Source: Gemmatimonadota bacterium
GTDB lineage: Bacteria; Gemmatimonadota; Gemmatimonadetes; Longimicrobiales; Gaopeijiaceae
Direction: 5' to 3'
DNA length: 16,164 bases
Assembly (NCBI GenBank): GCA_039589315.1
Contig: JBDHHQ010000132.1
Span: 1-16,164, forward strand
Of this stretch, positions 1-15,196 are shown piece by piece (the stretch's first letter is position 1; each line of letters opens with the position of its first letter). The notes below the pieces were generated by a model. That model saw nothing but the letters and a program-made list of their open reading frames with translations. It was not told the origin of the DNA and did not search any database. Both the position numbers and the translations under genes were made by a program.

Positions 1-269
1 CGCACGCCGGGAGCTCCGCCCAGCGCGTCCACCTCGAGGCCCGAGTCGTCCGCCACGGTGGGCCGGCCGCTCCTCTCGAAGAAGTAGCGGGCCTTGGAGC
101 GGGCGTTCTCCTCGAACGTGTCGTACGGCTCCAGCTCCTCTTCGGCCGGATCGTACGGCACGCCGGCGGCCTCCAGGTCGATGACGGTCAGGTCCGGGAC
201 GGACCTCAGGATCGCACGGATCTCGCGCAGCTTGTGGGCGCTGCGGGTTGCAAGGACGAGCTCCGTCAC
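1..269 (-). CDS. rdgB: Non-canonical purine NTP (dITP/XTP) pyrophosphatase, RdgB/HAM1 family; 5' part only, runs off the window edge
   Basis: Not in the ORF track. Manual translation from GTG at 269 gives MTELVLATRSAHKLREIRAIL...EPYDTFEENARSKARYFF...PTVADDSGLEVDALGGAPGV, containing the HAM1 motifs ATxxxxKxxE, TFxENAxxKA and ADDSGLxVDALxGAPGV. It lies directly downstream of rph, a common pairing. Confidence 0.95.
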   Translation of the reverse strand, partial: MTELVLATRSAHKLREIRAILRSVPDLTVIDLEAAGVPYDPAEEELEPYDTFEENARSKARYFFERSGRPTVADDSGLEVDALGGAPGV

Positions 270-324
270 GAGGCGCGTCTACCGCGAGTCGAGACGAGGC
301 CGCCGACTCGGGTGCCCGACCCCA

Positions 325-1047
325 TCACCGGGCTTCGGCCAGGGCCTGCTCCTGGGCACGGACCAATTGGCCGATCCCCCGGAGGGCCAGGTCCAGGAGC
401 ACGTCCAGCTCGGCACGCTCGAAGGGGTGTCCCTCGGCGGTCCCCTGCACTTCGATGAACCGCCCCCGGCCGGTGCCCACCACGTTCATGTCCACCTGGG
501 CCGACGAGTCCTCCCGGTAGTCCAGGTCCAGGACCGGGACCCCGTCGACCAGGCCTACGCTGACCGCCGCCACCGGCTCGATCAGGGGATTCCTGGGCAG
601 AAGCCCTTCGCCCACCAGGCTCGAGAACGCCTGCGACAGGGCGACGTAGCTTCCGGTGATGGCGGCGGTCCGGGTGCCGCCGTCGGCCTGGAGCACGTCA
701 CAGTCGACCTGAACGGTCAGCGGCCCCATCGCGCGCATGTCCGTCACGGACCTGAGCGACCGGCCGATGAGGCGCTGGATCTCCTGGGTGCGCCCCCGGG
801 CGCCGGTCCGTTCCCGGGACGTACGCGTGTGCGTCGCCCGAGGCAGCATCCCGTACTCGGCCGTCACCCATCCGGCGCCGCTGGCCTCGCGCCAACGCGG
901 CACACCCTCCTCCACGCTCGCCGTGCAGAGCACCCGGGTGTCCCCGCACGAGATCAGGCACGATCCTTCGGCGTAGGGCGCGGCGTGGAGCTCGAGCTGG
1001 AGCGGCCGGAGCGTGTCGGCCGGACGAGAGCGGGATGGTGGGTTCAT
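325..1047 (-). CDS. rph: Ribonuclease PH (tRNA nucleotidyltransferase)
   Basis: 240 aa with RNase PH motifs [65 protein letters not shown] and [10 protein letters not shown]. The ATG overlaps the upstream gene's stop (ATGA). Confidence 0.97.
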
Positions 1048-1532
1048 GCCTTGTTCCGCAGTTGCTGGAGGAGCGATGTGGTCGAGTAACCCGGGACGAA
1101 CGGAATGGTGAGCACCTCTCCGCCGGCCGCCCGCACCTCGTCCCCGCCCACGATCTCATGGATCTCGTAGTCCCCGCCCTTCACCAGGATGTCCGGCAGC
1201 AGGTCGCTGATGAGGCCGTGGGGCGTGTCCTCGTCGAAGAGCGTGACGGCGTCCACGCTGGCCAGGGCCGCCAGCACTACGGCCCGGTCTCCCTGAGCCA
1301 CCAGGGGGCGCGAGGGTCCCTTGAGGCGCTGTACGGAAGCATCGGTGTTCACGCCCACCACGAGCGCGTCGCCCAGCCGGCGGGCGGTGTCCAGGTAGCT
1401 CACGTGGCCCGGATGGAGCACGTCGAAGCACCCGTTCGTGAACACCAGCCGAAAGCTCCGGGGACGCCCGAAGCGGTGGAGCAGCGCGGCCCGGTCCAGC
1501 ACCTTGGCGTCCGGTGGGAGGGGCGTGGTCAT
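1044..1532 (-). CDS. rfaE2: D-glycero-beta-D-manno-heptose 1-phosphate adenylyltransferase (stand-alone RfaE domain II / HldC type)
   Basis: 162 aa with [18 protein letters not shown] (HxGH nucleotidyltransferase motif), [35 protein letters not shown] and GYSTT. Confidence 0.93.
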
Positions 1533-1623
1533 GGGGACTGCGCGGGCCCGTTCGCGGTCGGGTCGGGCCGCCGGGCGCCAGGGGCGTCGCGAGGGGCCGG
1601 TCGGTCGTGGGGCGGCGTCACGG

Positions 1624-2565
1624 TCACGACGATGCGTCGGCGTGGGCCGCGGCCTCGAGGCTCTGCTCCAGGATCTCCCGGGCGCCCTGCTCGTTCAGGC
1701 GCTGCGCCACCCGCTCTCCCAACCCCTCGGGTTCGGACAGATCACCGGTGAGGTCGGCCCGCACCATGTGCCGCCCGTCGGGGCTCGCCACCATGGCCCA
1801 GCCCCGGATCCCGCCCCCATAGGGCAAACCGATGGCGCCCACCAAGGACGACGCCTCCGCGCCCAGGGCGGCGACCACGCTCCTCTCGAACGCCACGGCC
1901 GCTCGGGTGTCGCCGTCGTCGAGCGCGGTGATCACGTCGAGCGTCTGCTGATCGGCCGCCCGCGTGACGACGCCGACGGCCCCCTGTCCCGGCGAGGGGA
2001 TCCACGCCGTCTCGTCGAGAGCGTGGGCGGCCCGTGCGGACAGGCCGAGAAGGCGGAGGTCCGCGCCGGAGACCACGGTGGCCTCGGCGTGGCCCTCGTC
2101 CACCCGCCGCAGGCGCTCGTCCAGGCCGTCCTCCCAGTCGCGGACGTCGCAGTCGGGCCGGAACGCGAGGGCCAGGGCCCGCGTGCGGGGTGAGGCGACG
2201 CCCAGGACCGATCCTCGCGGTAGCCCGTCCAGTGAGGCGGACCGGTCGCCCGTCATCACCAGGAGGTCACCGACGCTGGTGCGGGGCAGAACGGCCGCGA
2301 GCATGAGCCCGCTGTCGAGCTCCGCCGGCACCTGCTCCATGCCGACCACTGCCGCGTCCACCTCTCCCTGCGCGAGGGCGTGCCGGATCGGGGTCGCGCA
2401 GGCGCCATTGGCCGCGGGACCGGAATTGCCCCCCAGCGTTCCCGCCTCAGCCAGCAGCCAGACCTCGACCGGACCGATGCCCGCGGCCTCGAGCGCGGAC
2501 CTCACCAGGCGGCTCCTCGCCACCGAGCGAGGTGTTCCGGCGCAGCCGAGGGTCAGCTTGGTCAT
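1624..2565 (-). CDS. Porphobilinogen deaminase (HemC)-fold protein lacking the catalytic residues; probable pseudoenzyme
   Basis: 313 aa from the ATG at 2565, i.e. the C-terminal half of the 648-aa track ORF. Colinear with HemC along its length: GEVDAAV, PRxxxx[36 protein letters not shown], [18 protein letters not shown]. The HSxKD and GGCxxP motifs are absent. The start is inferred from homology and the RBS is weak. Confidence 0.85.
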
Positions 2566-2652
2566 CCGAAGGGCAGCCTGGAGATGGAGGGGTGACCCGG
2601 CGGTGCGCGAGTCGTACCGATCCGTGGTCAGGACGGGCTCATGGGGCGCCGG

Positions 2653-2681
2653 AAGATATTGGCGGCGTGAGCAACCCTCAA
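2653..2681 (-). promoter_or_regulatory. Candidate sigma70-type promoter for the hemC-like/rfaE2/rph/rdgB run
   Basis: The minus strand reads TTGAGG (2681-2676), a 17-nt spacer, then TATCTT (2658-2653), in a locally AT-richer intergenic patch. Confidence 0.4.
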
Positions 2682-2703
2682 GGTATCCTGAATCCGCGCC
2701 CAC

Positions 2704-2733
2704 TTGATAACCCGTGGCAGAGGAGGGCAATAT
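2704..2733 (+). promoter_or_regulatory. Candidate sigma70-type promoter for the mrp operon
   Basis: TTGATA (2704-2709), an 18-nt spacer, then CAATAT (2728-2733). The -10 match is weak. Confidence 0.25.
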
Positions 2734-2808
2734 GTGCGGCGCTTTTCCGTGCAGACCGGACCCGCCCCCCCGTCGATCCACACCGAGACCGAGGAGTCGG
2801 CACCAGCG

Positions 2809-3294
2809 GTGATAGGATACCTGAGGCTCGGGCTCGCGCTGGCTGTGGCGTGGGTCCTGCTGTCCAACCACTTCCAGCCCCTGCTCCTCTCGCTGGGCGC
2901 CGTGTCCGTGGTGGTGGTCGTCTGGGTGGCCTACCGCATGCGCCTCGTGGACGACGAGGGCAACCTCACCGCCCAGGTCGATGGCCTCAAGCTGATGCTG
3001 TACTGGCCGTGGCTCGTCTTCGAGATCGTCAAAGCGAACTTCCACGTGGCGGCCAGGATCGTCGCGCCGAGGGTCCGCATCGCACCGCGGCTCGTCACCG
3101 TCCCCGCGCCGCAGCGCACCGCCCTGGGCAAGGTGATCTACGCCAACTCCATCACGCTCACGCCCGGGACCGTCTCCGTGATCGTGGACGAGGCCGAAGA
3201 GACGATCCTGGTCCACGCCCTCACCGAGGCCAGCGCCCGGGACCTCCAGACCGGCGCCATGAGCCGGCAGGTCCAGTCCACCGAGAAGGGCTGA
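2809..3294 (+). CDS. mrpE: Mrp/Mnh Na+/H+ antiporter subunit E
   Basis: Probable GTG start at 2809 with GAGGAG at 2791-2796; 161 aa. Motifs WVLLS, YWPWLVFEIVKANFHVA, YANSITLTPGTVSV and ILVHALT are typical of MrpE. Confidence 0.92.
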   Translation: MIGYLRLGLALAVAWVLLSNHFQPLLLSLGAVSVVVVVWVAYRMRLVDDEGNLTAQVDGLKLMLYWPWLVFEIVKANFHVAARIVAPRVRIAPRLVTVPAPQRTALGKVIYANSITLTPGTVSVIVDEAEETILVHALTEASARDLQTGAMSRQVQSTEKG

Positions 3295-3297
3295 CCC

Positions 3298-3567
3298 ATG
3301 TTCGCCATGACGGTGACCGCGGTGCTCGTGACCATGGCTCTGGCCCTGGCCCGGGCGTGGCGCGGGCCTACCGTCTATGACCGCATCCTGGCGGTGAACT
3401 CGTTCGGCACCGCCACCGTGCTCTTCATCGCCGTCTACGGCTTCCTCACAGGCCGGCCCGACTTCCTGGACCTGGCCCTGCTCTACGCCCTGATCAACTT
3501 CATCGGGACCTTCGCCATCGTCCGGTACTTCCTGTACGGCAACTACGCTGATTCCGAGGAGACCTGA
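3298..3567 (+). CDS. mrpF: Mrp/Mnh antiporter subunit F
   Basis: 89 aa with 3 TM segments; motifs GPTVYDRILAVN and LDLALLYALINFIGT. Confidence 0.93.
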   Translation: MFAMTVTAVLVTMALALARAWRGPTVYDRILAVNSFGTATVLFIAVYGFLTGRPDFLDLALLYALINFIGTFAIVRYFLYGNYADSEET

Positions 3568-3572
3568 CAACC

Positions 3573-3893
3573 ATGGCGATGATCCTCGACGTCTCGAGCT
3601 GGGCGCTGCTGGCCGTGGGGTCGCTGTTCTGCGTGATCGGCGGCGTGGGCCTGATCCGTATGCCCGAGTTCTACTCCCGCGTGCACGCCTCGGGGCTCAC
3701 GGACACCATGGGCGCGGGCTGCGTGCTCCTCGGGCTGGCGCTGCAAGCGGGGTTCAGCAACGTGACCGTCAAGCTGATCATCATCCTCGGCTTCCTGCTG
3801 ATCACGAGCCCGACGGCCGCCCACGCTCTGGTGAACGGGGCCTATACCCACGGACTGCCTCCCCAGATCCAGAACGAGGAGGGCGAGTCGTGA
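3573..3893 (+). CDS. mrpG: Mrp/Mnh antiporter subunit G
   Basis: 106 aa; motifs GLIRMPEFYSRVHA, DTMG and ITSPTAAHAL. Confidence 0.93.
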   Translation: MAMILDVSSWALLAVGSLFCVIGGVGLIRMPEFYSRVHASGLTDTMGAGCVLLGLALQAGFSNVTVKLIIILGFLLITSPTAAHALVNGAYTHGLPPQIQNEEGES

Positions 3894-4612
3894 CCACCCT
3901 GGTCACCGTCCTCCTCCTGGCCATGCTCGCCGGGACGGCCATCACCATCGCGCGGGTACGGGGCGTCTTCGTGGCCGTGATGCTCACCGGGATCTACTCG
4001 CTGCTGAGCGCGAGCTGGATGCTCGTGCTGGACGCGCCGGACGTGGCCTTCACGGAGGCGGCGGTGGGGGCCGGCGTGGCCACCGTGCTGATGCTGAGCG
4101 CCCTGGCGCTCACCACGAACCAGGAGCGCCGGCCGGACCGTCCCACGATCCTGCCCCTCGTGGTCGTGGTGCTCACCGGCTCCGTCCTGGTCTATGGCAC
4201 GCTGGACTTGCCCAGTATCGGGGACCCCCTGGCGCCGGCCCAGCAGCACGTGGTGCCCCGCTACCTCCACGAGTCCCCTCACGAGATCCAGATCCCCAAC
4301 GTGGTCACCTCCGTGCTGGCCAGCTACCGCGGATACGACACGCTGGGCGAGACCACCGTGATCTTCACCGCCGGGCTCGGCGTGATCATGATCCTGGGCG
4401 GCGCGCAGCAGGTGCTCAGCTGGCAGCGGAGCCGTCGGCGCGAGGACGAGGAGGGGGCCATCGAGTTGGACGACTACACGGCGGCGCCCCTCCCCGAGCC
4501 CCGGGACCCGATACGGCCCGAGCACGGCTGGGACGCTCGGGGCGAGGCCGCCGCGTCCGGAGGAGAGGGCGCCGGAGACGATGAGGGTGCCGCGCCCGAG
4601 GAGGACGCATGA
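3890..4612 (+). CDS. DUF4040 plus MbhE-like protein (stand-alone equivalent of the MrpA C-terminal region) with an acidic C-terminal tail
   Basis: 240 aa; APDVAFTEAAVG (DUF4040/MbhD-like) followed by PNVVTSVLASYRGYDTLGE (the MrpA C-terminal/MbhE-type NxVxxIxxxxRxxDTxxE motif). GTGA overlap with mrpG. Confidence 0.88.
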   Translation: MTTLVTVLLLAMLAGTAITIARVRGVFVAVMLTGIYSLLSASWMLVLDAPDVAFTEAAVGAGVATVLMLSALALTTNQERRPDRPTILPLVVVVLTGSVLVYGTLDLPSIGDPLAPAQQHVVPRYLHESPHEIQIPNVVTSVLASYRGYDTLGETTVIFTAGLGVIMILGGAQQVLSWQRSRRREDEEGAIELDDYTAAPLPEPRDPIRPEHGWDARGEAAASGGEGAGDDEGAAPEEDA

Positions 4613-5031
4613 ACCACCTCATCGTCCCCCGGGTCATGGCCAAGATCATGATCCCGTTCATTCTGCTGTATGCCTTCTACGTGCAGTTCCACGGGGACTA
4701 CTCGCCCGGAGGCGGCTTCCAGGCCGGCGTCATCTTCGCGGCGGCGGTCATCCTCTATACACTGATCTTCCGCGTCGCGGAGGCGGAGCGCGCCGTGCGG
4801 CCGAGTGCGGTGCGGGTGATCGGGGCCCTGGGGCTCTTGCTCTACGCCGGCGTGGGCGTGGTCACCCTGTTCAAGGGAGGGGCGTACCTCGAGTACGGCG
4901 TCCTGAAGCACGATCCCGTGCATGGCCAGCACCTGGGCATCCTGCTGGTGGAGCTCGGGGTCGGCGTCTGCGTGGCCGCCATCATGATCTCCATCTTCTA
5001 CGCCTTCGTGGATTTCCTGCGCGCCCAATGA
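4609..5031 (+). CDS. mrpB: Mrp/Mnh antiporter subunit B
   Basis: 140 aa; HGDYSPGGGFQAG (MrpB PGGGF motif) and ELGVG. ATGA overlap with the previous gene. Confidence 0.93.
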   Translation: MNHLIVPRVMAKIMIPFILLYAFYVQFHGDYSPGGGFQAGVIFAAAVILYTLIFRVAEAERAVRPSAVRVIGALGLLLYAGVGVVTLFKGGAYLEYGVLKHDPVHGQHLGILLVELGVGVCVAAIMISIFYAFVDFLRAQ

Positions 5032-5420
5032 GCGTCTCCGAGCTGGCACTTCGCTTCCCCGTCCTCGCGGTGATCCTGGGGCACTACAACTACTGGATCG
5101 TCATCGTGTTGATGATGACGGGGTTCTACGTCGTCATCTCCCGGGACAACCTCATCAAGAAGATCATCGGGCTGAACATCTTCCAGACCTCGGTCTTCCT
5201 CTTCTACATCTCGCTGGGCAAGGTGGACGGGGGCACGGCGCCGATCCTCGCAGACGGCTTCGAGGTCTACGCGAACCCGCTGACGAGCGTGCTCATCCTG
5301 ACGGCCATCGTCGTGGGCATCGCCACCACGGCCGTGGGCCTCTCGCTGGTCGTGCGGATCCACGAGGCGTACGGAACCCTCGAGGCGGACGACATCGATC
5401 AGCTGGACGCAGAGCCGTGA
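5028..5420 (+). CDS. mrpC: Mrp/Mnh antiporter subunit C (NuoK-like)
   Basis: The ATG at 5028 overlaps the mrpB stop (ATGA). Motifs NLIKKIIGLNI, APIL, NPLTSVLILTAIVVG and YGTLE. A slightly later GTG start is possible. Confidence 0.92.
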   Translation: MSVSELALRFPVLAVILGHYNYWIVIVLMMTGFYVVISRDNLIKKIIGLNIFQTSVFLFYISLGKVDGGTAPILADGFEVYANPLTSVLILTAIVVGIATTAVGLSLVVRIHEAYGTLEADDIDQLDAEP

Positions 5421-6898
5421 TCGAGCAGAACCTGCCGATCCTCCAGATCATCGTGCCGTTGATCGCGGCGCCGCTCTGCCTGCTGCTCCCTCGCCGTCAG
5501 ATCGTCACCGCGTTCGCAGTGGCGGTCACCTGGCTCACGTTCTTCATCTCCCTGTGGCTCCTGCAAATGGTGCTCCAGGGCGACGCCATCTCGTACGAGC
5601 TCGGCGGGTGGGCGCCGCCGTGGGGCATCGAGTATCGGGTGGATCTGCTCAACGCGTTCGTGCTGGTGCTGGTCTCGGGCATCGGAGCCTTCGTCATGAC
5701 GTACGCGCCACCGAGCCTGTCGGTGGAGATCAGGTACGGGGCGTACCGCATGTTCATGGCGATGTACCTGCTGTGCCTGGCGGGGCTCCTGGGCATCGCC
5801 ATCACGGGCGACCTCTTCAACGTCTTCGTCTTTCTCGAGATCTCGGCGCTGTCCTCGTACGTGCTGATCAGCATGGGCAAGGACCGCCGCGCGCTGCCCG
5901 CCGCCTATCGCTACCTGATCATGGGCACGCTGGGGGCCACGTTCATCCTCATCGGCATCGGCCTGCTGTACGCCATGACGGGCACGCTGAACATGGCGGA
6001 CATGCACGAACGGCTCCCGGCGGTGACCGGCACCCGAGCCGTGGTCGCCGCGTTCGGATTCCTGACCGTGGGGATCAGCCTCAAGATCGCCCTGTTCCCG
6101 CTGCACCTGTGGCTGCCCAACGCCTACGCCTACGCACCCTCGGTCGTCACGGCGTTCCTCGCCGCCACCGCCACCAAGGTGTCGGTCTACGTCCTGATCC
6201 GGGTGTTCTTCTCGGTCTTCGGCGTCGAGTTCTCGTTCCAGGCCGAGCCGCTCTCGATGGTGTTGATGTTCCTGGCCCTGATCGGCGTGGTGAGCGCGTC
6301 ACTGGTGGCCGTCTTCCAGGACGACGTCAAACGGCTGCTCGCGTACTCGTCGGTCGCCCAGATCGGGTACATGGTCCTGGGGGTCAGCATGGCCACCGTG
6401 ACCGGCCTCACGGGGGGAATCGTCCACCTGTTCAACCACGGGCTCATGAAGGGCGCCCTGTTCATGGCCATGGGGGCCATCTTCCTGCGGGTCGGCTCGG
6501 TCCACATCTCCGACATGAGGGGGCTGGGACGGGAGATGCCCATCACGATGGCCACCTTCGTGATCGGCGGGCTGGGCCTCGTCGGCGTGCCCCTCACCGT
6601 GGGCTTCATCTCCAAGTGGTACCTGGTGCTGGGCGCCCTGGAGCTGGGCCTGTGGTGGATCGCCGTGATCATCCTGGTCAGCTCGCTCATCGCCCTGGTC
6701 TACGTCTGGCGGGTGGTGGAGGTAGCCTACTTCGAGGAGCGGCCCGAGGGGCGTGCGCCGTTGCAGGAGGCGCCGGCCGCCATGCTGATTCCCATGATGG
6801 TGCTGGCCGGCGCCACGATCGTCTTCGGCGTCACCACGGACTTCACGGCCGGCGTGGCGGCGGCCGCGGCTCGCGCACTGATGGGGGTCGGTCCGTGA
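5417..6898 (+). CDS. mrpD: Mrp antiporter subunit D (NuoM/N-like), copy 1
   Basis: 493 aa; GGWAPPWGIE, GDLFNVFVFLEI (TM5 Glu), LKIALFPLHLWLPNAY (TM7 Lys), TATKV (TM8 Lys), KRLLAYSSVAQIGY and GFISKW (TM12 Lys). Confidence 0.93.
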   Translation: MIEQNLPILQIIVPLIAAPLCLLLPRRQIVTAFAVAVTWLTFFISLWLLQMVLQGDAISYELGGWAPPWGIEYRVDLLNAFVLVLVSGIGAFVMTYAPPSLSVEIRYGAYRMFMAMYLLCLAGLLGIAITGDLFNVFVFLEISALSSYVLISMGKDRRALPAAYRYLIMGTLGATFILIGIGLLYAMTGTLNMADMHERLPAVTGTRAVVAAFGFLTVGISLKIALFPLHLWLPNAYAYAPSVVTAFLAATATKVSVYVLIRVFFSVFGVEFSFQAEPLSMVLMFLALIGVVSASLVAVFQDDVKRLLAYSSVAQIGYMVLGVSMATVTGLTGGIVHLFNHGLMKGALFMAMGAIFLRVGSVHISDMRGLGREMPITMATFVIGGLGLVGVPLTVGFISKWYLVLGALELGLWWIAVIILVSSLIALVYVWRVVEVAYFEERPEGRAPLQEAPAAMLIPMMVLAGATIVFGVTTDFTAGVAAAAARALMGVGP

Positions 6899-8442
6899 CC
6901 GGCGAGATGGCCATCGCCCTGGCCCTGGTGCTGCCCCTCTTGTGCGCCCTGGTGGTGGGTCGGCTGGACGCATCGCCCAACGTCCGGGAGGCCGCGAGCC
7001 TGATCACCGGAGGGCTCCTGTTCGGCACGGTGCTCGAGCTCCTGCCCCTGGTACAGGGAGGCGGCCGGCCAAGGCTGGACGTGCTGGAGGTGCTCCCCGG
7101 GCTGTCGCTCGCCTTCGAGGTGGAGCCCCTGGGGATGCTGTTCGCCATGGTGGCGTCGGGCCTGTGGATCGTCACCACCGCATATGCCATCGGCTACATG
7201 CGGGGCCACCACGAGGCCAACCAGACCCGCTTCTTCACGTACTTCGCCGTGGCCATCTCGGCGACCATGGCCGTGGCGTTCGCGGCCAATCTCTTCACCC
7301 TGTTCGCGGCGTACGAGCTCCTGACGCTGTCCACCTATCCGCTGGTCACGCACCACCAGACCGACGGGGCCCGGAGGGCGGGCCGAGTGTACCTGGGGAT
7401 CCTCCTCAGCACGTCGGTGGGCCTCCTGCTCCTGGCCGTGATCTGGACGTACTTCGCCGCCGGAACGCTGGAGTTCCAGCCCGGAGGGATCCTCGCCGGG
7501 AGGGTGGAGGGGTGGCAGGTGGGGTTGCTGTTGGCGCTGTACGCCTTCGGCACGGGCAAGGCGGCCCTCATGCCGTTCCACCGCTGGCTGCCGGCCGCCA
7601 TGGTGGCGCCCACTCCGGTGAGCGCCCTGCTCCACGCGGTGGCGGTGGTGAAGGCGGGCGTGTTCACGGTCACCAAGGTCGTGGTCTACGTCTTCGGCAT
7701 CGAGCTGCTGTCCTCGTCGGGCACGAGCATCTGGCTCATGTACGTGGCGGCCTTCACCATCCTGGCGGCGTCCGTCGTGGCCATCATGAAGGACAACCTG
7801 AAGGCCCGGCTCGCCTACTCGACCATCAGCCAGCTGTCGTACATCGTCCTGGGGGCCGCGCTGGCCAACGCGTCGGGGATCCTGGGCAGCGGCATGCACA
7901 TCGCCATGCACGCCTTCGGCAAGATCACCCTGTTCTTCTGTGCCGGCGCCATCATGGTGGCGGCCCACAAGACCAAAGTGAGCGAGCTCGACGGCATCGG
8001 CCGGACCATGCCCGTGACCATGACGGCTTTCTTCATCGGTTCGCTCAGCATCATCGGGCTGCCGCCCTTCGGGGGCGCTTGGAGCAAGTGGTTCCTGGGG
8101 CTGGGTGCGGTGGACGCTCATCAGACCGTCTTCCTTCTGGTCCTGATGGCCAGCTCGCTCCTGAGCGTGGCGTACCTCATGCCCATCGTGGGACGGGCGT
8201 TCTTCCTGGAGCCGGCGGAGGCGGCAGCGGGCCATGCGCACGCTGGCGCGAACCCGGGCCACGGTCAGAGGTCGGAGACCGACCCGACCGGGGCCACCGA
8301 TCACGGTCACGATGGCTCCGGGATCCATGAGGCCCCCATGTGGATGGTGGTGCCGCTGTGCATCACGGCCGTGGGCACGTTGGTGCTCTTCTTCATGGCG
8401 GACGCGATCTACGCGCTGCTCGCCCCCCTCGTGGTGCCGTAG
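6895..8442 (+). CDS. Antiporter-like subunit of the MrpA/NuoL type (core membrane domain only, about 515 aa)
   Basis: The GTG at 6895 overlaps the previous stop (GTGA); this is the C-terminal part of the 962-aa track ORF. YELLT, GKAALMPFHRWLPAAMVAPTPVSALLHA (NuoL/MrpA signature with TM8 His), LKARLAYSTISQLSY and GAWSKW. Confidence 0.9.
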   Translation: MTGEMAIALALVLPLLCALVVGRLDASPNVREAASLITGGLLFGTVLELLPLVQGGGRPRLDVLEVLPGLSLAFEVEPLGMLFAMVASGLWIVTTAYAIGYMRGHHEANQTRFFTYFAVAISATMAVAFAANLFTLFAAYELLTLSTYPLVTHHQTDGARRAGRVYLGILLSTSVGLLLLAVIWTYFAAGTLEFQPGGILAGRVEGWQVGLLLALYAFGTGKAALMPFHRWLPAAMVAPTPVSALLHAVAVVKAGVFTVTKVVVYVFGIELLSSSGTSIWLMYVAAFTILAASVVAIMKDNLKARLAYSTISQLSYIVLGAALANASGILGSGMHIAMHAFGKITLFFCAGAIMVAAHKTKVSELDGIGRTMPVTMTAFFIGSLSIIGLPPFGGAWSKWFLGLGAVDAHQTVFLLVLMASSLLSVAYLMPIVGRAFFLEPAEAAAGHAHAGANPGHGQRSETDPTGATDHGHDGSGIHEAPMWMVVPLCITAVGTLVLFFMADAIYALLAPLVVP

Positions 8443-8521
8443 AGGCGGCCATGAGGAATCGGGCGCGATGGACCGTTGAGGGACCGGGGCGAGCGGCCAC
8501 CGTGAGAGACGGGGGTCGCCC

Positions 8522-8791
8522 ATGGAGAACGAGGAGTCACGCGTGAGGACCGACCGCAAGCGGTGGCTCGACGACCCGGCCAACGTCCGGAAGGTCTACA
8601 TCGGGCTCTGGGTGATCAGCCTGGTGCTGCTGGCCCTGGACCTCGTCTACGAGAAGCACGCCCACTACCCCGCCGAGGAGCTCTTCGGCTTCTACGCCTT
8701 CTTCGGGTTCCTGGGCTTCGCGGGTCTGGTCATGGGCGGCAAGCTGCTCCGGCGCTTCGTGAAGCGCGACGAGGACTACTATGACCGGTAG
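8522..8791 (+). CDS. Small two-TM membrane protein inside the mrp operon, function unknown
   Basis: 89 aa with two hydrophobic segments, N-terminal WLDDPANV and C-terminal KRDEDYYD. Codon style matches the operon and it overlaps the next gene by 11 nt. Confidence 0.8.
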   Translation: MENEESRVRTDRKRWLDDPANVRKVYIGLWVISLVLLALDLVYEKHAHYPAEELFGFYAFFGFLGFAGLVMGGKLLRRFVKRDEDYYDR

Positions 8792-10487
8792 CCCCTTCGT
8801 GGAGATGCTTCCCCCGGGTGCCATCCTGGTGCTGGGCGCCCTGCTGATTCCCCTGCTCCGGGGACGCCTCCGCTCGGCCTACATGCTGCTCCTGCCCGTA
8901 CTGGGGCTCGTCCAGCTGCTCCTGCTGGCGCCCGGCGAGTACCTGGCCTTCCGCATCTTCGACTATGACCTGACGCCCGTCCGAGCGGACCGGCTGTCGC
9001 TGCTGTGGGGCTACATCTTCCACATCGCCGCGTTCGTCATGGTCATCTTCGCCCTGCGCGTGAAAGGCGCGGGCGAGCACGTTGCCGCGCTGACGTACGC
9101 GGGCGCTGCCGTGGGCGCGGTCTTCGCGGGCGACCTGGTCACGCTCTTCGTGTTCTGGGAAGGCACGGCCATCGCGTCCGTCTTCCTCATCTGGGCCACG
9201 CGGACCGAACGCGCCTACCACGCGGGGATGCGCTACCTGATCATCCAGGTGGGCTCGGGCGTGCTGCTGCTGGCGGGGGCGCTCGTGCGGGTGTGGGAGA
9301 CCGGGTCCCTGGACTTCGACTTCATCGGCCTGGACGGTGCCGGCGGCCTGCTCATCTTCCTGGCATTCGGGATCAAGGCGGCGTTCCCGCTCCTCCACAA
9401 CTGGCTGCAGGACGCCTATCCCGAGGCCACGGTGTCGGGCACGGTATGGCTCAGCGCGTTCACCACCAAGCTGGCCATCTACGCCCTGGCCAGGGGCTTC
9501 CCGGGGACCGAGATCCTGATCCCCATCGGGACGCTGATGACGCTGTTCCCGATCTTCTTCGCCGTCATCGAGAACGACTTCCGCCGGGTGCTGGCGTACA
9601 GCCTGAACAACCAGCTCGGCTTCATGGTCGTGGGTATCGGTGTGGGGACCGAGCTCGCCTTGAACGGAACGGCGTCCCACGCCTTCGCCCACATCATCTA
9701 CAAGGCGCTGCTCTTCATGTCGATGGGGGCCGTGCTGTACCGAACCGGGACCATCAAGGGCTCGGACCTGGGCGGGCTGTACAAGTCCATGCCCTGGACG
9801 GCGACGTTCTGTGTCGTGGGCGCGGCGTCCATCTCGGCGTTCCCGCTGTTCAGCGGCTTCGTGAGCAAGTCGCTGATCCTGACGGCCACGGCCGAGAACC
9901 ACTACACGTTGTACTACTTCCTGCTGATCCTGGCGTCGGCGGGTGTGATGGAGCACTCGGGGATCAAGATCCCGTTCTTCACCTTCTTCGGCCACGACTC
10001 GGGGATCCGGGTGAAGGAGGCGCCCAGGAACATGCTGGTGGCCATGGGGATCCTGGCGTTGCTCTGCATCGGGATCGGCGTGTATCCGCAGCCGCTCTAC
10101 GACATCCTGCCCTTCCCCGTCGACTACGAGCCCTACACCATGACGCACGTGGTCACGCAGCTCCAGCTGCTAGTCTGGGCGGCACTAGCGTTCGCGGTGC
10201 TCAAGCGGTACAGCCTCTATCCCGCGGAGCTGCCTTCCACGAACCTGAGCACCGACTGGGTCTACCGGAAGCTGTTCCCGGCCGGCTGGGGCTACGCCGT
10301 GCGCGTGGGCGGTGGGGCCTGGACCCAATTCAAGGGACGGGCGACGCGCCGCACCGTTGGCTTCCTGGAGACGCTACACCGCTACCATGGGCCCCGGGGC
10401 ATCCTCGCGCGGACGTGGCCTGCCGGCAGCATGACCCTCTGGGTGGCGATCCTGCTGCTGGTGGTGCTGGTGGTGTTCTACCTGTGA
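8781..10487 (+). CDS. mrpD: Mrp antiporter subunit D family protein (third antiporter-like subunit) with C-terminal extension
   Basis: 568 aa; GDLVTLFVFWE, IKAAFPLLHNWLQDAYPEAT, FTTKLA, RRVLAYSLNNQLGF, HAFAHIIYKALLFM and GFVSKS, followed by DWVYRK, a basic amphipathic stretch and a final TM. Confidence 0.92.
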   Translation: MTGSPFVEMLPPGAILVLGALLIPLLRGRLRSAYMLLLPVLGLVQLLLLAPGEYLAFRIFDYDLTPVRADRLSLLWGYIFHIAAFVMVIFALRVKGAGEHVAALTYAGAAVGAVFAGDLVTLFVFWEGTAIASVFLIWATRTERAYHAGMRYLIIQVGSGVLLLAGALVRVWETGSLDFDFIGLDGAGGLLIFLAFGIKAAFPLLHNWLQDAYPEATVSGTVWLSAFTTKLAIYALARGFPGTEILIPIGTLMTLFPIFFAVIENDFRRVLAYSLNNQLGFMVVGIGVGTELALNGTASHAFAHIIYKALLFMSMGAVLYRTGTIKGSDLGGLYKSMPWTATFCVVGAASISAFPLFSGFVSKSLILTATAENHYTLYYFLLILASAGVMEHSGIKIPFFTFFGHDSGIRVKEAPRNMLVAMGILALLCIGIGVYPQPLYDILPFPVDYEPYTMTHVVTQLQLLVWAALAFAVLKRYSLYPAELPSTNLSTDWVYRKLFPAGWGYAVRVGGGAWTQFKGRATRRTVGFLETLHRYHGPRGILARTWPAGSMTLWVAILLLVVLVVFYL

Positions 10488-10542: not shown

Positions 10543-11055
10543 CTACCAGTTCGACTGGGCCCCGTCGATGATCTGCTGCACCAGCAGATCGATGGCTTCG
10601 ACGCGGCCCACCTCCTCGGTCTCCGATCCCTCCAGGTACTGACCTCGCGCGGTGAGGTTCGAGCTTTCCCAGAGGACCACGTTCTCGACCAGATCGACGA
10701 TCTCTTCGCGCTGAAGCACCTCGGCCCGGGTCTCGTCGGCACCCGGCCTATAGAGAGGAGCCGTCAGCTCGTAGCGCCGGATCGTGCCTCGCACCACGGC
10801 GTCGGCGTTCTCTTCGGCCGCGTTCTGGACGCCGAGGGCGCGTGTGAGATCCCGCAGCATGACCTGGTGGATTTCCTGCGTGAGCTCGAAACGCACCGTC
10901 TCGTTATCGAAGGGCAGGACGGCCACGGAGTTCACGTGCTCAGGCGGGAAGCTGCCCGCCTGGAAGGAGTAGTTGCACCCTGCCAGGGTCGCCACGGCCA
11001 ACGTGGTGGCGAGCCCAACCGTCCAACGGGTCTGTGGCGCCCGGAACACGGTCAA
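10543..11055 (-). CDS. lptE: LptE-family (LPS assembly) outer-membrane lipoprotein
   Basis: Probable TTG start at 11055 overlapping the upstream TGA (alternative GTG at 11049); 170 aa. Lipobox LAGC followed by YSF, then SVAVLPFDNET, ADAVVRGTI, VLWE and a C-terminal helix ending in W, matching the pattern of non-proteobacterial LptE proteins. Confidence 0.78.
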   Translation of the reverse strand: MTVFRAPQTRWTVGLATTLAVATLAGCNYSFQAGSFPPEHVNSVAVLPFDNETVRFELTQEIHQVMLRDLTRALGVQNAAEENADAVVRGTIRRYELTAPLYRPGADETRAEVLQREEIVDLVENVVLWESSNLTARGQYLEGSETEEVGRVEAIDLLVQQIIDGAQSNW

Positions 11056-11792
11056 CGTGCGTCGAGCCAGATATCCGGCGGATACACGTCCACGTGCTCG
11101 TAGACGTCGAGCGTCAGAGTGAGCTCGCGAAACTCGCCCAGGTTCCGGTACACCGTCTCGTGGGGGAAGGGATGCTCGGACGAGGCCTCGATGGCGACGA
11201 CCTCGGCCACGTTGCCACGCCGCAGCAGCTCCACCTCCGTCACTTCGTCGTCGGTCAGGTGGTACCGAACCTCCTCGCCCCCGTCGTACCCGTAGCTGAG
11301 CCGGATCTGATCGTCTCCCTCCGATTCGCCGCCGTTCAGGTAGCCCAGAGTACCGGGACGGAACACGCCCAACGAGGCCCACAGCAGGGCCGGAGGCGGC
11401 ACGATCTCCTGGCTCTCCACACCGGGAGGCAGCCGCAGCACGTCGTCGACCAACGCCGCCCGGAGGACCGTCTCGCCATTGCCCGTGAACAGGTCCAGGC
11501 GCGCCTTGTACGGGGGCTCCATGCGAACCACGCCGCGACCGCTGGTGCGGGAGCCGGATTCGTTCAGGCTCCAGTCGAACAGGATGCGCACGGGCTCCTG
11601 GAGAATGGTCCTGAGGCGGACGTTGTCCGCGACGCCAACGGCGTCGATGGGCTCCGGAGGAGGTGGCGGTGGCGCCCCGGAGCAGCCGAAGGCCGCGAGC
11701 GCCAGGATCGCACCCCAAAGGGCGCCGGAGCCGGAGGAGGCGGGCCTCCGGGCTGTGGCGGCCTGGTCACGGCCGCTCGAGACTGCTGTCAT
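11052..11792 (-). CDS. Hypothetical lipoprotein, beta-rich, possibly LolA/LolB-like fold
   Basis: 246 aa; hydrophobic segment with lipobox AFGC, a poly-Pro linker (APPPPPPEP), then GRGVVRMEPPYKARLDLF. The start overlaps the upstream stop (TGATG). The fold assignment is tentative. Confidence 0.75.
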   Translation of the reverse strand: MTAVSSGRDQAATARRPASSGSGALWGAILALAAFGCSGAPPPPPPEPIDAVGVADNVRLRTILQEPVRILFDWSLNESGSRTSGRGVVRMEPPYKARLDLFTGNGETVLRAALVDDVLRLPPGVESQEIVPPPALLWASLGVFRPGTLGYLNGGESEGDDQIRLSYGYDGGEEVRYHLTDDEVTEVELLRRGNVAEVVAIEASSEHPFPHETVYRNLGEFRELTLTLDVYEHVDVYPPDIWLDAR

Positions 11793-14700
11793 CAGAAATT
11801 GAATCCGAAGAAGAAGTCGACGAAGGTCGAGTTGAATTCCTTGCCACGGTCGTAGATGAGTGGCGCTTCTTCGCCGATGGCGAAGCGCTTGCCGACGTCC
11901 AGGCGAAAGACCAACGCGTACGCGAGGCTCAGACGGAAGCTCACGCCGTACGATCCCCAGGAACCTTCGGGGCGCTGGCCCTCGAGCCAGCTCTGGCCGA
12001 TGTCCGTGAACAGCGCGCCCTGGATCCCCGGAAATCTAAGGTTGCCGAAGGGGAGCTGGAAGGCGATCTGCCGGAAGAGGGGGAATCGCCACTCGGCGTT
12101 CAGGAACCACACCCGGCTGCCGGCGAGGCTGTAGCGGGGATAGCCACGCAGACGATGCGTGCCTCCGAGGACTGCTCGGCTGGGAATGGCCCCGCCGCTC
12201 CAGTAGCCGAATCCGCGCAGGGCGATGGCGCTGAACATGGACGTCCGGATGTAGCGCCGGTAGTCGGCCATGACCACGAAGCTCTCGGGGCGGGCCCGGG
12301 AGAGATCGGTGATGAGCCCCATGGTGATGTTGTACCGCTCGCCGTCCAGGGGTCCGGTCGGGAGCCACAGCGTGTTGTCCTTGACGTACGTGACGAAGTT
12401 GCGACTCAGGACGGCCTCGCGGGTGAGGTCCCGCGGATCGGCTCGGAGGTCGGGCGTCACGAAGTCGGGCTGGTCGTAGCGGTTGGAGCGCTCCACGCCG
12501 AACTGGAACTCGAGGCGCCGGTATTTCGAGAACGGGTAGGAGGCCATGAAGAAACCGCCCCAGGTCTCCTCGAAGAACCGGTTGAACCCCACGTCCCGGA
12601 ACTCGCCCCGGAACCGGAAGACGCCGCCGCCGAGGTTGAGGCGATGGCTGAGGTTCAGGTAACGGAGCTGGCCCGCGAAGGCGTCGCTCAGCCTGCTGAA
12701 GCCGTTGGATTGGGCTGCGGCGACGCTGGCGAAGAGCATGTGGTTGCCCAGCATGTCGCTGGCCAGGAACTGGACGCCCTGCGCGGACCCCAGCCCGGGG
12801 GCGATCATGGCGTCGCCTCCGGCGAAGTCCAGCGAGAAGGACTTCCAGTGCGAGTAGTCCGTGGACTCGGTGTCCTCGTTGATCTCGGCGTCCAGCTCTT
12901 CCCAGCGCCACGTCGTCGTGGTGTCGTAGGCGGCGTCGGCCAGAAGACCGGGTGAGGCGATGGCCCCTCCGGAGCCTCGCGGCGCAGTGGCGGGGTTGCC
13001 GGCCGCCGCGCCGACCCCGTGGGCGCCTGGCTCCTCGAGCTCGCGGCCACCGCTCGCGGCCTCCCCCGCACCGTCCGTTGAATCCCCGCTGCCGTTCGTA
13101 GGCGGGTTCGGCCCGGCGGGCACGCCGTCGCCCGCTCGCGCCGCCGCGGGATCCCCGTTGCGAGCCGTCGCCCCGCCCAGCGTCCCACGAGGACGTCTCC
13201 CAGGTGCCTCCAGTCCGAGGGCCCCGCTCCGGGGGACGCCGTTGAAGGCCAACGTCCCCGCCGGCATGCTCAGGGCGATTCGCTCACCCGGCCGATTGTC
13301 CTCGTCGGGCCGGTACTGGAAGATCTGCCACGTTCCGTCGTGATAGCCGGTAAACACCAGGCTCTCGTCGTCGGGCAGCCACTCTGGATCGAAGGCGCCA
13401 CCGGTGAACTGGGAGATGCGCTCGCCTGCCCCGTCCGGACCGACGGCGTAGATCTCGTAGAGCCCCGACCGATCGGAGGAGAAGGCCACTCTGGAGCCGT
13501 CGTGGGACCAGCGCGGGTGCTGATCCTTCCACGGACCGTACGTCAGGTACGAGATGTCCCGGCTGTCCATATCCAGGACGAACAGGTTCTTGGATCCGTC
13601 CGCTCCGAAGGGCGTCCGGTCGCTCGAGAACACGATGGATCGCCCGTCGGGGGACCAGTCGGCGTCGTCGTCCTCGTAGACGTCCTGGGTGAGCGGCACG
13701 CGGGTCCCGGTCTCGAAGTCGAGATGGTACAGGTCTGCCGGGCCACGGGCCGACAGACCCGTAAACACCACGCTACGCCCGTCAGGGGCCCACGCGGGGG
13801 ATCGCATCCCGGCCAGATCATCCCACTGGTAACGGCCGACGACCCGCTCCTCGGCCAGGTTCCACAGGAAGAGGGCGTCGGTCTCGTGGAACTTGGCCAC
13901 GACGGCCAGGACGCCGTCGTCCGACAGGTCCATGCGCGAGTCCATCAGGTGGAACGACTGGAACTCGGCCCGTCGCTCCGACTCCACCACCTTGCGAACG
14001 GGTTCGGGCGCACCGGAAAGGCGCGTCTCGTACAGCGCCGGAAAGCCGGTCCGGGGTGAGATGAAGAACAGGTGCGGTATGGTGTCACCCGGCACGAGCC
14101 CCACCTGAGGCTTCAGGCTGGGTGCGGTGGCGATCAGCGAAGCCGCCACGTCGGTGGGCGGGCGATCGGCATACAGGGGGAAGTACTTCTGCTCCAGGCT
14201 GTACCGCCACTCGCGGTCCAGCTCGTCCATGGTCATCCCGTACACCCAGGCGAACGCTTCCTCGAAGGACTCGTACTTCCAGATGCTCTCGTAGATCTCG
14301 GCGACGTGCTCCTCGCCGAACCGCTCCTCGAGGAAGTGGAAGAGCGAGCCTCCCAGCGGATAGGCCAGGAAGCCCACGGAGTACGTGAACTGCTTCAGGG
14401 TCGGCAGGTCCCCGGACAGCACCAGGTCCCGGATCACCATCTCGTCATCGCTGTCCTGGGGGCTCGACCAGTACTCGGCCAGCCCTTCCTGCCACCAGAA
14501 CGGGAACCACGCGCCTCGCACGCTTCCGAAGAGGGCGTCGACCTCGCTGAGCCGGGACAGGTGGAAGACGTGGACGAGCTCGTGGCGGACGGTGTGCCGG
14601 AACTGGGCGTAATTCCCGCGGAACGGAATGGCCACCCGGCGCTTGAGGAACTCGGTGAAGCCGAGGACGCCCTCGGGGATGAAGCCCGCCGTGAGGTTGG

Positions 14701-14989
14701 TCTGCTCGAAGTGGTTGTGGGACGAGTAGACCACCAGCGGGATCCGGCGGAACGGATGGTGACGGAAGCGCTGCTCGAGCAGGGCGTAGCTCTCCTCGCC
14801 GTAGACCAGGGCCAGCCGCGCGATCTCCTCTTCTTCGGGATAGTAGTAGACGTCGATGTGCTCGCCCGAGAGCACCTGCCAGTCGAAGCTGGAGTACTGG
14901 ATCTTGTTCTTGCCGTACTGGACGGTCTGGGCGGCGAGGGGCGCCGGCACGAGGAGGGCGATGAGAATCGGGATCGCTCTGAACTTCAT
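11792..14989 (-). CDS. Omp85/BamA-superfamily outer-membrane protein with N-terminal gluzincin-like metallopeptidase domain and TolB/PD40 beta-propeller repeats
   Basis: Probable ATG at 14989 (1065 aa). Signal peptide MKFRAIPILIALLVPAPLAA; HELVH...EGLAEY; PD40 repeats (PAWAPDGRSVVF, ADWSPDGRSIVFSSDR, PRWSHDGSRVAFSSDR, PEWLPDDESLVF); barrel with LGG..RLRGY, NAEWRFP, LFTDIG and a C-terminal FFFGFNF. Confidence 0.9.
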   Translation of the reverse strand: MKFRAIPILIALLVPAPLAAQTVQYGKNKIQYSSFDWQVLSGEHIDVYYYPEEEEIARLALVYGEESYALLEQRFRHHPFRRIPLVVYSSHNHFEQTNLTAGFIPEGVLGFTEFLKRRVAIPFRGNYAQFRHTVRHELVHVFHLSRLSEVDALFGSVRGAWFPFWWQEGLAEYWSSPQDSDDEMVIRDLVLSGDLPTLKQFTYSVGFLAYPLGGSLFHFLEERFGEEHVAEIYESIWKYESFEEAFAWVYGMTMDELDREWRYSLEQKYFPLYADRPPTDVAASLIATAPSLKPQVGLVPGDTIPHLFFISPRTGFPALYETRLSGAPEPVRKVVESERRAEFQSFHLMDSRMDLSDDGVLAVVAKFHETDALFLWNLAEERVVGRYQWDDLAGMRSPAWAPDGRSVVFTGLSARGPADLYHLDFETGTRVPLTQDVYEDDDADWSPDGRSIVFSSDRTPFGADGSKNLFVLDMDSRDISYLTYGPWKDQHPRWSHDGSRVAFSSDRSGLYEIYAVGPDGAGERISQFTGGAFDPEWLPDDESLVFTGYHDGTWQIFQYRPDEDNRPGERIALSMPAGTLAFNGVPRSGALGLEAPGRRPRGTLGGATARNGDPAAARAGDGVPAGPNPPTNGSGDSTDGAGEAASGGRELEEPGAHGVGAAAGNPATAPRGSGGAIASPGLLADAAYDTTTTWRWEELDAEINEDTESTDYSHWKSFSLDFAGGDAMIAPGLGSAQGVQFLASDMLGNHMLFASVAAAQSNGFSRLSDAFAGQLRYLNLSHRLNLGGGVFRFRGEFRDVGFNRFFEETWGGFFMASYPFSKYRRLEFQFGVERSNRYDQPDFVTPDLRADPRDLTREAVLSRNFVTYVKDNTLWLPTGPLDGERYNITMGLITDLSRARPESFVVMADYRRYIRTSMFSAIALRGFGYWSGGAIPSRAVLGGTHRLRGYPRYSLAGSRVWFLNAEWRFPLFRQIAFQLPFGNLRFPGIQGALFTDIGQSWLEGQRPEGSWGSYGVSFRLSLAYALVFRLDVGKRFAIGEEAPLIYDRGKEFNSTFVDFFFGFNF

Positions 14990-15031
14990 GCTACCGTATC
15001 GCCAGCCCGAGTGTGGGTGGGGGCCTACCGG

Positions 15032-15060
15032 ACAATGGCGGACTCCGGGTCCACCGGCAA
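15032..15060 (-). promoter_or_regulatory. Candidate sigma70-type promoter for the Omp85-lipoprotein-lptE unit
   Basis: The minus strand reads TTGCCG (15060-15055), a 17-nt spacer, then CATTGT (15037-15032), about 40 nt upstream of the ATG. Confidence 0.35.
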
Positions 15061-15159
15061 GACACGGGACGGCCCGCGCCGGGATCCTCCTGGGTCGGGC
15101 CTCCACCTCTCTTCTACGGTACCGCGGCACCAGGCTTTCGGTCCGCCCGCGTCACACCC

Positions 15160-15188: not shown

Positions 15189-15196
15189 GCTGCGCC

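What the first reader, a model, noticed from the sequence alone, without database searches (positions are those of the whole stretch)
1624..2565. Intact HemC homologue that has lost its active site, with a charge-reversed cleft: candidate repurposed pseudoenzyme
Seen in sequence: an uninterrupted 313-aa ORF colinear with porphobilinogen deaminase. By-eye comparison with E. coli HemC as I recall it gives these changes. The cofactor-attachment GGC(242)QVP becomes AEA(238)SSL (codon 1852-1854). The catalytic HSMK(83)D(84)VP becomes VGME(77)Q(78)VP (2332-2337). TR(11)QS becomes CAGT, GKGLF becomes ANGAC, SSLRR(132) becomes ASPRT, LR(149)GNV becomes WE(145)DGL, and LKR(176)L becomes LRLL. Structural motifs (PxxGQGA, ER, PDG, GAREIL) are kept. 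Established: the Cys, the Asp and these Arg/Lys residues are needed for dipyrromethane cofactor binding and pyrrole polymerisation, and HemC domains 1-2 have a type II periplasmic-binding-protein-like fold. Inference: selective loss of functional but not structural residues, with no stops or frameshifts, points to a retained fold with a new role. The basic-to-acidic swaps suggest it binds something other than polyanionic pyrroles. No other hem genes are in the window.
Basis: partly seen in the sequence, partly recalled or inferred. Interest (0 to 1): 0.8.

Follow-up and report, generated by a model that had tools for sequence, protein, structure and literature searches.

The report
Dead haem enzyme kept under selection
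This gene is a copy of the haem-building enzyme HemC that has lost the residues its reaction needs, yet stays intact and under purifying selection in dozens of related bacteria, including many in which no haem pathway was found, so it likely has a second, non-enzymatic job, predicted to use a conserved patch on its third domain.

Summary
Observation confirmed. The 313-aa ORF (1624-2565, minus strand) is a HemC homologue lacking the catalytic Asp, the cofactor Cys and 13 of 16 pyrrole-binding residues. It is the native hemC (order hemC-rfaE2-rph-rdgB) of one Gemmatimonadota family. Degenerate but intact copies sit at this locus in 58 genomes of 14 genera, with dN/dS 0.10-0.25 in the 7 unsaturated pairs (0.15 for this gene). 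hemB was not found in 21 of 21 genomes holding only this copy. It was present in 25 of 25 that also have a second hemC, as this species does. The 'charge-reversed cleft' is overstated: net charge falls from +6 to 0 and the acidic swaps are not shared across the family. What is conserved is a likely exposed, Arg-rich patch on the domain-3 sheet, already present in active orthologues. Best reading (0.55): a moonlighting binding role that outlived catalysis. The partner is unidentified; RNase PH and RfaE2 are not obligatory. The gene is dispensable (clean deletions in 6 of 6 checked). Not found in print (10 searches). This scan has noted similar dead HemCs on other DNA.

The parts
1624..2565 (-). 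hemC* ORF, 313 aa, catalytically degenerate native HemC orthologue
   Evidence: dN/dS 0.147 against G001
2332..2337 (-). E77/Q78 in place of K83 and the catalytic D84
1852..1854 (-). A238 in place of the cofactor-attachment C242
2131..2133 (-). E145 in place of R149 (shared by the three genus-level sequences only)
2113..2187 (-). stretch holding two kept basic cleft residues, R127 (=R131, codon 2185-2187) and R151 (=R155, codon 2113-2115)
2401..2445 (-). former lid loop, residues 41-55, pLDDT under 50; residues 42-54 identical in G000 and G001 despite 6 synonymous changes; largely deleted in other genera
1741..1842 (-). domain-3 beta-sheet (residues 242-275) carrying the family-specific conserved patch R254, W256, H266, R269, D271, T273
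1687..1689 (-). Q293 (Arg in 56 of 59 degenerate copies), counted with the patch
2653..2681 (-). weak sigma70-like promoter candidate (two hexamers, 17-nt spacer, 8 of 12 consensus), both hexamers identical in G001; picked by eye, below the scan's threshold
1044..1532 (-). rfaE2 (heptose 1-phosphate adenylyltransferase), downstream neighbour in 57 of 58 loci; not obligatory
325..1047 (-). rph (RNase PH), neighbour in 52 of 58 loci; not obligatory
1..260 (-). rdgB (Ham1 family) 5' part, cut by the contig end

Best explanation
This is the family's own hemC gene, which has lost its catalytic Asp, its cofactor Cys and most pyrrole-binding residues but is still kept as an intact protein-coding gene under purifying selection, likely because it has a second, haem-independent job as a binding or adaptor protein, predicted to work through an exposed Arg-rich patch on the domain-3 beta-sheet. 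Shown: loss of the residues, orthology by gene order, dN/dS far below 1, retention both with and without a detectable haem pathway, and conservation of the domain-3 patch, also in active orthologues at the same locus. Inferred, in order: (1) the ancestral HemC at this locus gained the patch while still active (moonlighting); (2) the enzyme job was then dropped (pathway lost) or handed to a second hemC in a hem cluster; (3) the cleft decayed while the fold and patch stayed. The partner is not identified. My odds: enzymatically dead 0.97; selected as a protein 0.97; positive non-catalytic function 0.75; acting through the domain-3 patch 0.55. Of that 0.55, about 0.3 is a protein partner or self-association and 0.25 an RNA partner such as tRNA or rRNA.
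For: Residue loss is selective (3 of 16 against 30 of 49, p 0.004), and 0 of 59 degenerate copies keep both D84 and C242. Papers report that Asp84Ala/Asn cannot make product and that Cys242 carries the cofactor (PMC7959689, PMC8561815). All 58 degenerate loci lie next to rfaE2 or rph and none next to a hem gene; 25 of 26 active positional orthologues share that context; 21 of 22 other active copies lie in hem clusters. dN/dS is 0.147 at dS 0.84 (p 2e-24) and accrued after the loss, because G000 and G001 share the derived residues. All 18 degenerate pairs have dN/dS of 0.25 or less. hemB was not found in 21 of 21 genomes with only the degenerate copy (17 at least 90% complete, 2 single-contig) and was found in 25 of 25 two-copy genomes. 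The domain-3 sheet is the best-conserved long block between genera (identity 0.48 against 0.33 in hem-cluster enzymes) and changes least in close pairs (0.10 against 0.16-0.25 elsewhere). R254 is invariant in 74 of 74 family copies against 52 of 262 other HemCs. At least 6 of 7 patch residues occur in 58 of 59 degenerate copies, 12 of 15 active family orthologues, 1 of 22 hem-cluster copies and 5 of 262 others. These positions are polar and variable in ordinary HemC, as expected of an exposed face.
Against: The patch was defined after looking at the data, and relatives are not independent. Surface exposure is inferred from residue patterns, as no coordinates were available; the patch could be a lineage-specific internal brace (W188 is at a position hydrophobic in 93% of ordinary HemCs). 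The gene is dispensable: 6 of 6 checked genomes with rph but no match show a clean deletion, and one copy (G266) is frameshifted. dN/dS is higher than that of the 11 neighbouring genes (0.010-0.072), so constraint is relaxed. No partner was found: rph is missing in 4 of 4 genus-g72 genomes, rfaE2 in G081 and G162, and rdgB is in 38 of 38 genomes tested whether or not they carry hemC*. Similarity of domain 3 to dsRBD and HPF folds is only Z 4.7-5.8. There is no expression evidence.
Confidence: 0.55

Rival explanations
1. Trapped relic. The gene has no function of its own but sits in an expressed operon, so stops and frameshifts are removed (polar effects on rfaE2-rph-rdgB) and misfolding mutations are removed (toxicity). 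It persists until a clean deletion occurs.
For: Clean deletions in 6 of 6 checked genomes; one frameshifted copy; in-frame loss of the lid loop; stop and start codons overlap the next gene in several loci; relaxed dN/dS relative to neighbours; many kept residues are the structural ones of all HemCs.
Against: All 58 intact loci stay at about 260-330 aa over 14 genera with no domain-scale shrinkage. An invariant R254 and T/S273 at positions variable in other HemCs are not expected from foldability alone. In G000 and G001 the gene is first in its operon and 91 nt from rfaE2 in G000, yet dN/dS is still 0.15.
Confidence: 0.2
2. Small-molecule binder. Domains 1-2, a type II periplasmic-binding-protein-like fold, now bind a new ligand in a re-tuned cleft.
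For: Domains 1-2 match solute-binding proteins at Z 9-11. R131 is kept in 53 of 59 and R132 in 46 of 59. In this genus domain 2 is the most constrained part (dN/dS 0.10) and the lid residues 42-54 are unchanged.
Against: There is no shared new cleft chemistry: charge ranges from -2 to +6, domain 1 is the least conserved region (0.27), and the substituted residues differ even between G000 and G001 at F62, S81, K83, D84 and C242.
Confidence: 0.12
3. Helper or regulator of tetrapyrrole metabolism, for example a haem- or porphyrin-binding chaperone or a partner of Hem enzymes.
For: A paper title reports haem binding to Vibrio cholerae HemC (title only, in the reference list of PMC7959689). Haem auxotrophs would still need to handle haem (inference).
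Against: It is kept in 21 genomes in which hemB was not found and is never next to hem genes (0 of 58). No Cys or His is invariant in the degenerate alignments.
Confidence: 0.08
4. Still an active HMBS using substitute residues, or else a recent neutral pseudogene.
For: Databases name relatives hydroxymethylbilane synthase. The other hemC in this assembly is broken.
Against: No Asp or Cys at or near the catalytic positions in this protein. The break in the other hemC is in one contig only; an intact 311-aa version is recorded on 6 contigs. dN/dS rejects neutrality.
Confidence: 0.05

Closest known systems
Hydroxymethylbilane synthase / porphobilinogen deaminase (HemC, EC 2.5.1.61; PF01379 + PF03900; TIGR00212; PDB 1ah5, 1pda, 5h6o)
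   Same: Homologous over its full length, about 29-30% identical to the E. coli enzyme; predicted three-domain fold with TM 0.86-0.88, Z 38; direct orthologue of active HemCs in the same family (40-45% identical).
   Different: Lacks Asp84, Cys242 and 11 more of the 16 ligand-contact residues; below the TIGR00212 cut-off; kept in genomes without hemB; carries a family-specific domain-3 patch.
Type II periplasmic-binding-protein fold (GlnPQ SBD, BvgS VFT, Bug/TctC, LysR effector domains)
   Same: Domains 1-2 align at Z 9-11, rmsd 3.3-5.7 over about 180-225 residues.
   Different: This is the fold all HemCs share. No signal peptide is evident at the N-terminus, domain 3 is present, and no conserved ligand pocket was found.
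dsRBD-like and HPF/RaiA alpha-beta-beta-beta-alpha domains; RtcA insert and PmbA/TldD domains
   Same: Domain 3 modelled alone matches them at Z 4.7-7.3.
   Different: These scores are in the range of a common arrangement; no sequence similarity; RNA binding is untested.
Other catalytically dead HemC homologues noted by this scan (e1-7906343, e1-5106208, e1-2876566, e1-895045)
   Same: Reported as intact, selected HemC look-alikes without the catalytic residues, some in genomes without a haem pathway (AI notes, unchecked).
   Different: Other lineages and other neighbours (serS, hemA). No sequence look-alike was found in the scan's index. Not tested here.

Membership tests
HemC sequence family (PF01379/PF03900) | PF01379 above gathering cut-off | tested here: met
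   104.8 bits against 22.1
HemC sequence family (PF01379/PF03900) | PF03900 C-terminal domain above gathering cut-off | tested here: not met
   21.3 bits against 26, although the domain-3 model matches HemC domain 3 at Z 15.5
HemC sequence family (PF01379/PF03900) | Three-domain HemC fold | tested here: met
   pLDDT 88.8, TM 0.86-0.88 to solved HemCs; the alignment used was mostly canonical HemC (21 of 24 rows), so this is a prediction
Active hydroxymethylbilane synthase (TIGR00212 equivalog) | Score above the curated cut-off | tested here: not met
   147.3 against 164
Active hydroxymethylbilane synthase (TIGR00212 equivalog) | Catalytic Asp84 | tested here: not met
   Gln78
Active hydroxymethylbilane synthase (TIGR00212 equivalog) | Cofactor-attachment Cys242 | tested here: not met
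   Ala238
Active hydroxymethylbilane synthase (TIGR00212 equivalog) | Basic and polar pyrrole-binding residues | tested here: not met
   3 of 16 kept
Active hydroxymethylbilane synthase (TIGR00212 equivalog) | Dipyrromethane cofactor and activity on porphobilinogen | not testable with these tools
   needs purified protein
Pseudoenzyme | Enzyme homologue lacking catalytic residues | tested here: met
Pseudoenzyme | Maintained as a protein by purifying selection | tested here: met
   dN/dS 0.147; 18 of 18 pairs at 0.25 or less
Pseudoenzyme | Expressed, inactive by assay, with a demonstrated non-catalytic function | not testable with these tools
   no expression or bench data
Solute-binding protein (type II PBP) | Conserved ligand pocket between domains 1 and 2 | tested here: not met
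   cleft residues and charge vary across 59 copies; a genus-specific pocket is not excluded
dsRBD / HPF RNA-binding domains | Fold similarity clearly above background | tested here: inconclusive
   Z 4.7-5.8
dsRBD / HPF RNA-binding domains | RNA binding | not testable with these tools
   needs a binding assay

The most novel reading that the evidence does not exclude
HemC has an unrecognised second job. Its domain 3, which has a dsRBD/HPF-like topology, binds RNA (tRNA or rRNA) or a partner in RNA metabolism. In this Gemmatimonadota family that job has outlived the enzyme, possibly more than once, leaving natural separation-of-function alleles. The dead HemCs that this scan noted in other phyla would be repeats of the same event.
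Probability: 0.2. Interest if true: 0.85.

Novelty: new variant of a known kind. Interest (0 to 1): 0.62.

Why it matters
HemC is treated as a single-purpose monomeric enzyme and its presence is used to call haem synthesis in genomes. Here a family-wide group of proteins, often annotated as hydroxymethylbilane synthase, lacks the residues for the reaction, which can mislead pathway calls; hemB was not found in 21 genomes where this is the only hemC match. The family contains active, dead and deleted versions at one locus, with a candidate surface shared by the active and dead forms. That makes a second function of HemC directly testable with a handful of point mutants.

Tried and rejected
Charge-reversed cleft: rejected as a family trait. 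Neutral pseudogene: rejected. RNase PH or RfaE2 as obligatory partner: rejected; RdgB is uninformative, present in 38 of 38. Link to the mrp operon: not constant, several loci have lptE directly upstream. Horizontal origin of the C43 hem cluster by GC3: not supported, its 0.80-0.87 lies within the genome's range (10th-75th percentile 0.79-0.88). Longer N-terminus from an upstream GTG: a 1-nt indel in G001 breaks that frame. Number of origins: trees need 4 changes (rph+rfaE2) or 2 (HemC), but AU tests do not reject one origin (p 0.505; p 0.262), so this is unresolved. Degenerate copies outside the family: none among 17 loci checked from other families of the class, a small part of the 147 of 201 genomes with matches. 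The metagenome contig scan found nothing. No Rfam match in 1-4000; no promoter or terminator at the scan's threshold. Atlas search with domain 3 alone gave only hits under 0.9. Complex prediction (homodimer) was not available, so self-association is untested. The mrpE row was in the wrong frame and was dropped. Paper searches returned 0 papers; one returned one whose pseudoenzyme is TrpC-TrpF; two returned HMBS structure papers and unrelated ones.

Full report
OBSERVATION. The ORF at 1624-2565 on the minus strand is uninterrupted and gives 313 aa. It matches PF01379 (104.8 bits) and, below cut-off, PF03900 and TIGR00212 (147 against 164). I took 16 ligand-contact residues from Table 2 and the text of PMC7959689 plus the cofactor cysteine (passages read; PMC8561815 passages; no supplements read). 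I placed them on the family alignment by motif. The papers give the E. coli numbers Asp84, Arg149, Arg155 and Cys242; the other E. coli labels and the motif placement are recalled. This protein keeps 3 of the 16 (S129, R131, R155) against 30 of 49 other positions at least 90% conserved in 48 canonical HemCs (Fisher p 0.004). PMC7959689 states that Asp84Ala and Asp84Asn cannot form product and that the enzyme is a monomer. The AlphaFold model has mean pLDDT 88.8 with a low-confidence lid at 41-55 and matches HemC structures at TM 0.86-0.88; 21 of its 24 alignment rows were canonical, so it shows compatibility with the fold and not more.

WHAT THE GENE IS. A 78% identical locus is titled a Gemmatimonadota bacterium (L069), and the Atlas cluster of a relative is mostly Gemmatimonadota. 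The order hemC-rfaE2-rph-rdgB is conserved across the order, and relatives carry fully canonical HemC there, so this is the native hemC and not a stray paralogue. The genome also has a hemA-C-D-B-Q-E-H-Y-L cluster on contig C43 (gene names from my reading of the translations, with hemA, hemB and hemC confirmed by family searches). Its hemC is split by a short deletion in this assembly, but that fragment is recorded on one contig only, while an intact 311-aa protein, 100% identical over 99% of the fragment, is on 6 contigs. The species therefore likely has a working HemC elsewhere. In the congener G001 (94% complete) neither hemA nor hemB was found.

A FAMILY-WIDE PATTERN. Of 251 family genomes, 209 match TIGR00212 and 184 pass the cut-off. 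I followed 24 genomes with weak best matches and 40 with several matches. This gave 58 intact degenerate loci in 14 genera plus one metagenome protein (59 sequences keeping at most 8 of the 16 residues). Left out of that count: G265 and G102 (cut by contig ends), G266 (frameshifted), G014 (run of N) and canonical fragments. Two more copies were found later (G081, G153). None of the 59 keeps both D84 and C242; all 58 loci adjoin rfaE2 or rph and none a hem gene, while 21 of 22 non-positional active copies lie among hem genes. hemB was not found in 21 of 21 genomes whose only hemC match is the degenerate one (G265 and G266 included; 17 are at least 90% complete; G079 and G124 are single contigs). 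It was found in 25 of 25 two-copy genomes, 12 of 15 genomes with an active positional copy, and 3 of 18 genomes without a TIGR00212 match. Among 17 loci checked from other families of the class none was degenerate in this way. G037 and G056 are unpublished; they are 2 of the 11 outgroup canonical rows (G056 also in 64, 79), and no conclusion depends on them. G037, G287, G290 and G380 are also in the tallies.

SELECTION. With a pairwise codon model that I wrote (GY94, F3x4), dN/dS between G000 and G001 is 0.147 at dS 0.84 (p 2e-24 against 1), with no gaps over 304 codons; 11 neighbouring genes give 0.010-0.072. Both genomes share the derived residues, so this constraint acted after catalysis was lost. 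All 18 degenerate pairs give 0.25 or less; the 7 with dS under 2.2 give 0.10-0.25, the rest are saturated, and pairs are not all independent. The gene is nevertheless dispensable: 6 of 6 genomes that have rph but no match show a clean deletion at the locus; four others lack rph too. Whether the loss of catalysis happened once or several times is open.

WHERE THE CONSTRAINT LIES. The cleft is not rebuilt. The summed charge of eight cleft positions is +6 in 46 of 48 active enzymes, 0 here, +1 in G001 and -2 to +6 over the 59. Five former ligand positions differ between G000 and G001, and the lid is mostly deleted outside this genus. Only R131 (53 of 59) and R132 (46 of 59) persist. By contrast the domain-3 sheet (242-275) has inter-genus identity 0.48 among degenerate copies, the highest of the long blocks (the 10-residue hinge is 0.56), against 0.33 in hem-cluster enzymes, where it is the lowest. 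It has the fewest amino-acid changes in 7 close pairs (0.10 against 0.16-0.25) with normal synonymous change. Of the 20 positions with the largest gain in conservation over ordinary HemC, 13 fall in 242-295 (54 of 273 positions; nominal p 5e-6, window chosen afterwards). R254, W/R256, R/H266, R269, D/E271, T/S273 and R/Q293 are polar and variable in ordinary HemC, which suggests an exposed face (inference). At least 6 of the 7 are present in 58 of 59 degenerate copies, 12 of 15 active family orthologues, 1 of 22 hem-cluster copies and 5 of 262 other HemCs. The patch therefore predates the loss of catalysis.

MECHANISM. The simplest account is moonlighting followed by separation of functions: the ancestral HemC at this locus gained a binding surface on domain 3, the enzyme job was lost with the pathway or passed to a second hemC, and the fold was kept to present that surface (0.55). 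The partner is not identified. RNase PH is missing in 4 of 4 g72 genomes and RfaE2 in G081 and G162, which all keep the gene; rdgB is everywhere. Domain 3 alone (pLDDT 96.9) resembles PmbA/TldD and RtcA domains (Z 6.3-7.3) and dsRBD and HPF domains (Z 4.7-5.8), which is a lead toward RNA binding only. The main rival is a trapped relic held by polarity and misfolding costs (0.2); then a re-tuned ligand cleft (0.12), a haem helper (0.08), and residual activity or neutrality (0.05).

NOVELTY. Ten searches of the paper library found no description of a HemC pseudoenzyme; the library lacks most subscription journals. The scan's own notes list dead HemCs in other lineages; I could not test them and do not count them as support. 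Pseudoenzymes are a known kind, so this is a new variant of a known kind. Interest 0.62: the finding is real, family-wide and testable, but the function is inferred and the gene is dispensable.

Noticed in passing
G000:C43, L004:3050-12668 (minus strand): Full hemA-C-D-B-Q-E-H-Y-L cluster; hemC is split by a short deletion with frameshift in this contig only, with an intact version on 6 other contigs (strain variant or assembly error).
   Followed up: yes
window 2704-10487 (+): The mrp Na+/H+ antiporter block is inverted relative to hemC* in G000, G001 and G087 but co-directional and directly upstream in most other family loci; it includes three MrpD-like subunits and a small 89-aa gene.
   Followed up: partly
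L037:922-1658 (G001): rph appears frameshifted near codon 180 while still 94-97% identical to G000; possibly an assembly error.
   Followed up: no
L092 (G266): A degenerate hemC copy split by a frameshift with about 12 positions missing, in a genus where other members lack the gene cleanly.
   Followed up: partly
L200, L201 (G405, G409): HemC in hem clusters of another family that keeps 14 of 16 ligand residues but matches only up to about the end of domain 2, with a gap at the cofactor cysteine.
   Followed up: no
Atlas hit 3: A cluster of 291 proteins of about 290 aa, mostly Bacillota, with PF01379 but no PF03900; possibly another degenerate HemC family.
   Followed up: no
P0068, P0185, P0069, P0190: Unrelated full-length HemC homologues keeping only 7-10 of the 16 ligand residues.
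   Followed up: no
G072, G077, G078, G123 and genus g70: Near-complete genomes with no hemC-like match (0 of 19 in g70); the four named also lack rph and hemB.
   Followed up: partly
window 10543-15934: lptE-like gene, a 246-aa putative lipoprotein without Pfam match, a large peptidase-MA/PD40 protein with a likely beta-barrel end, and a metallophosphoesterase; this block lies directly upstream of hemC in many relatives.
   Followed up: partly
L004:12676-13305: A 209-aa membrane-like protein upstream of hemA with three paralogues elsewhere in the genome.
   Followed up: no
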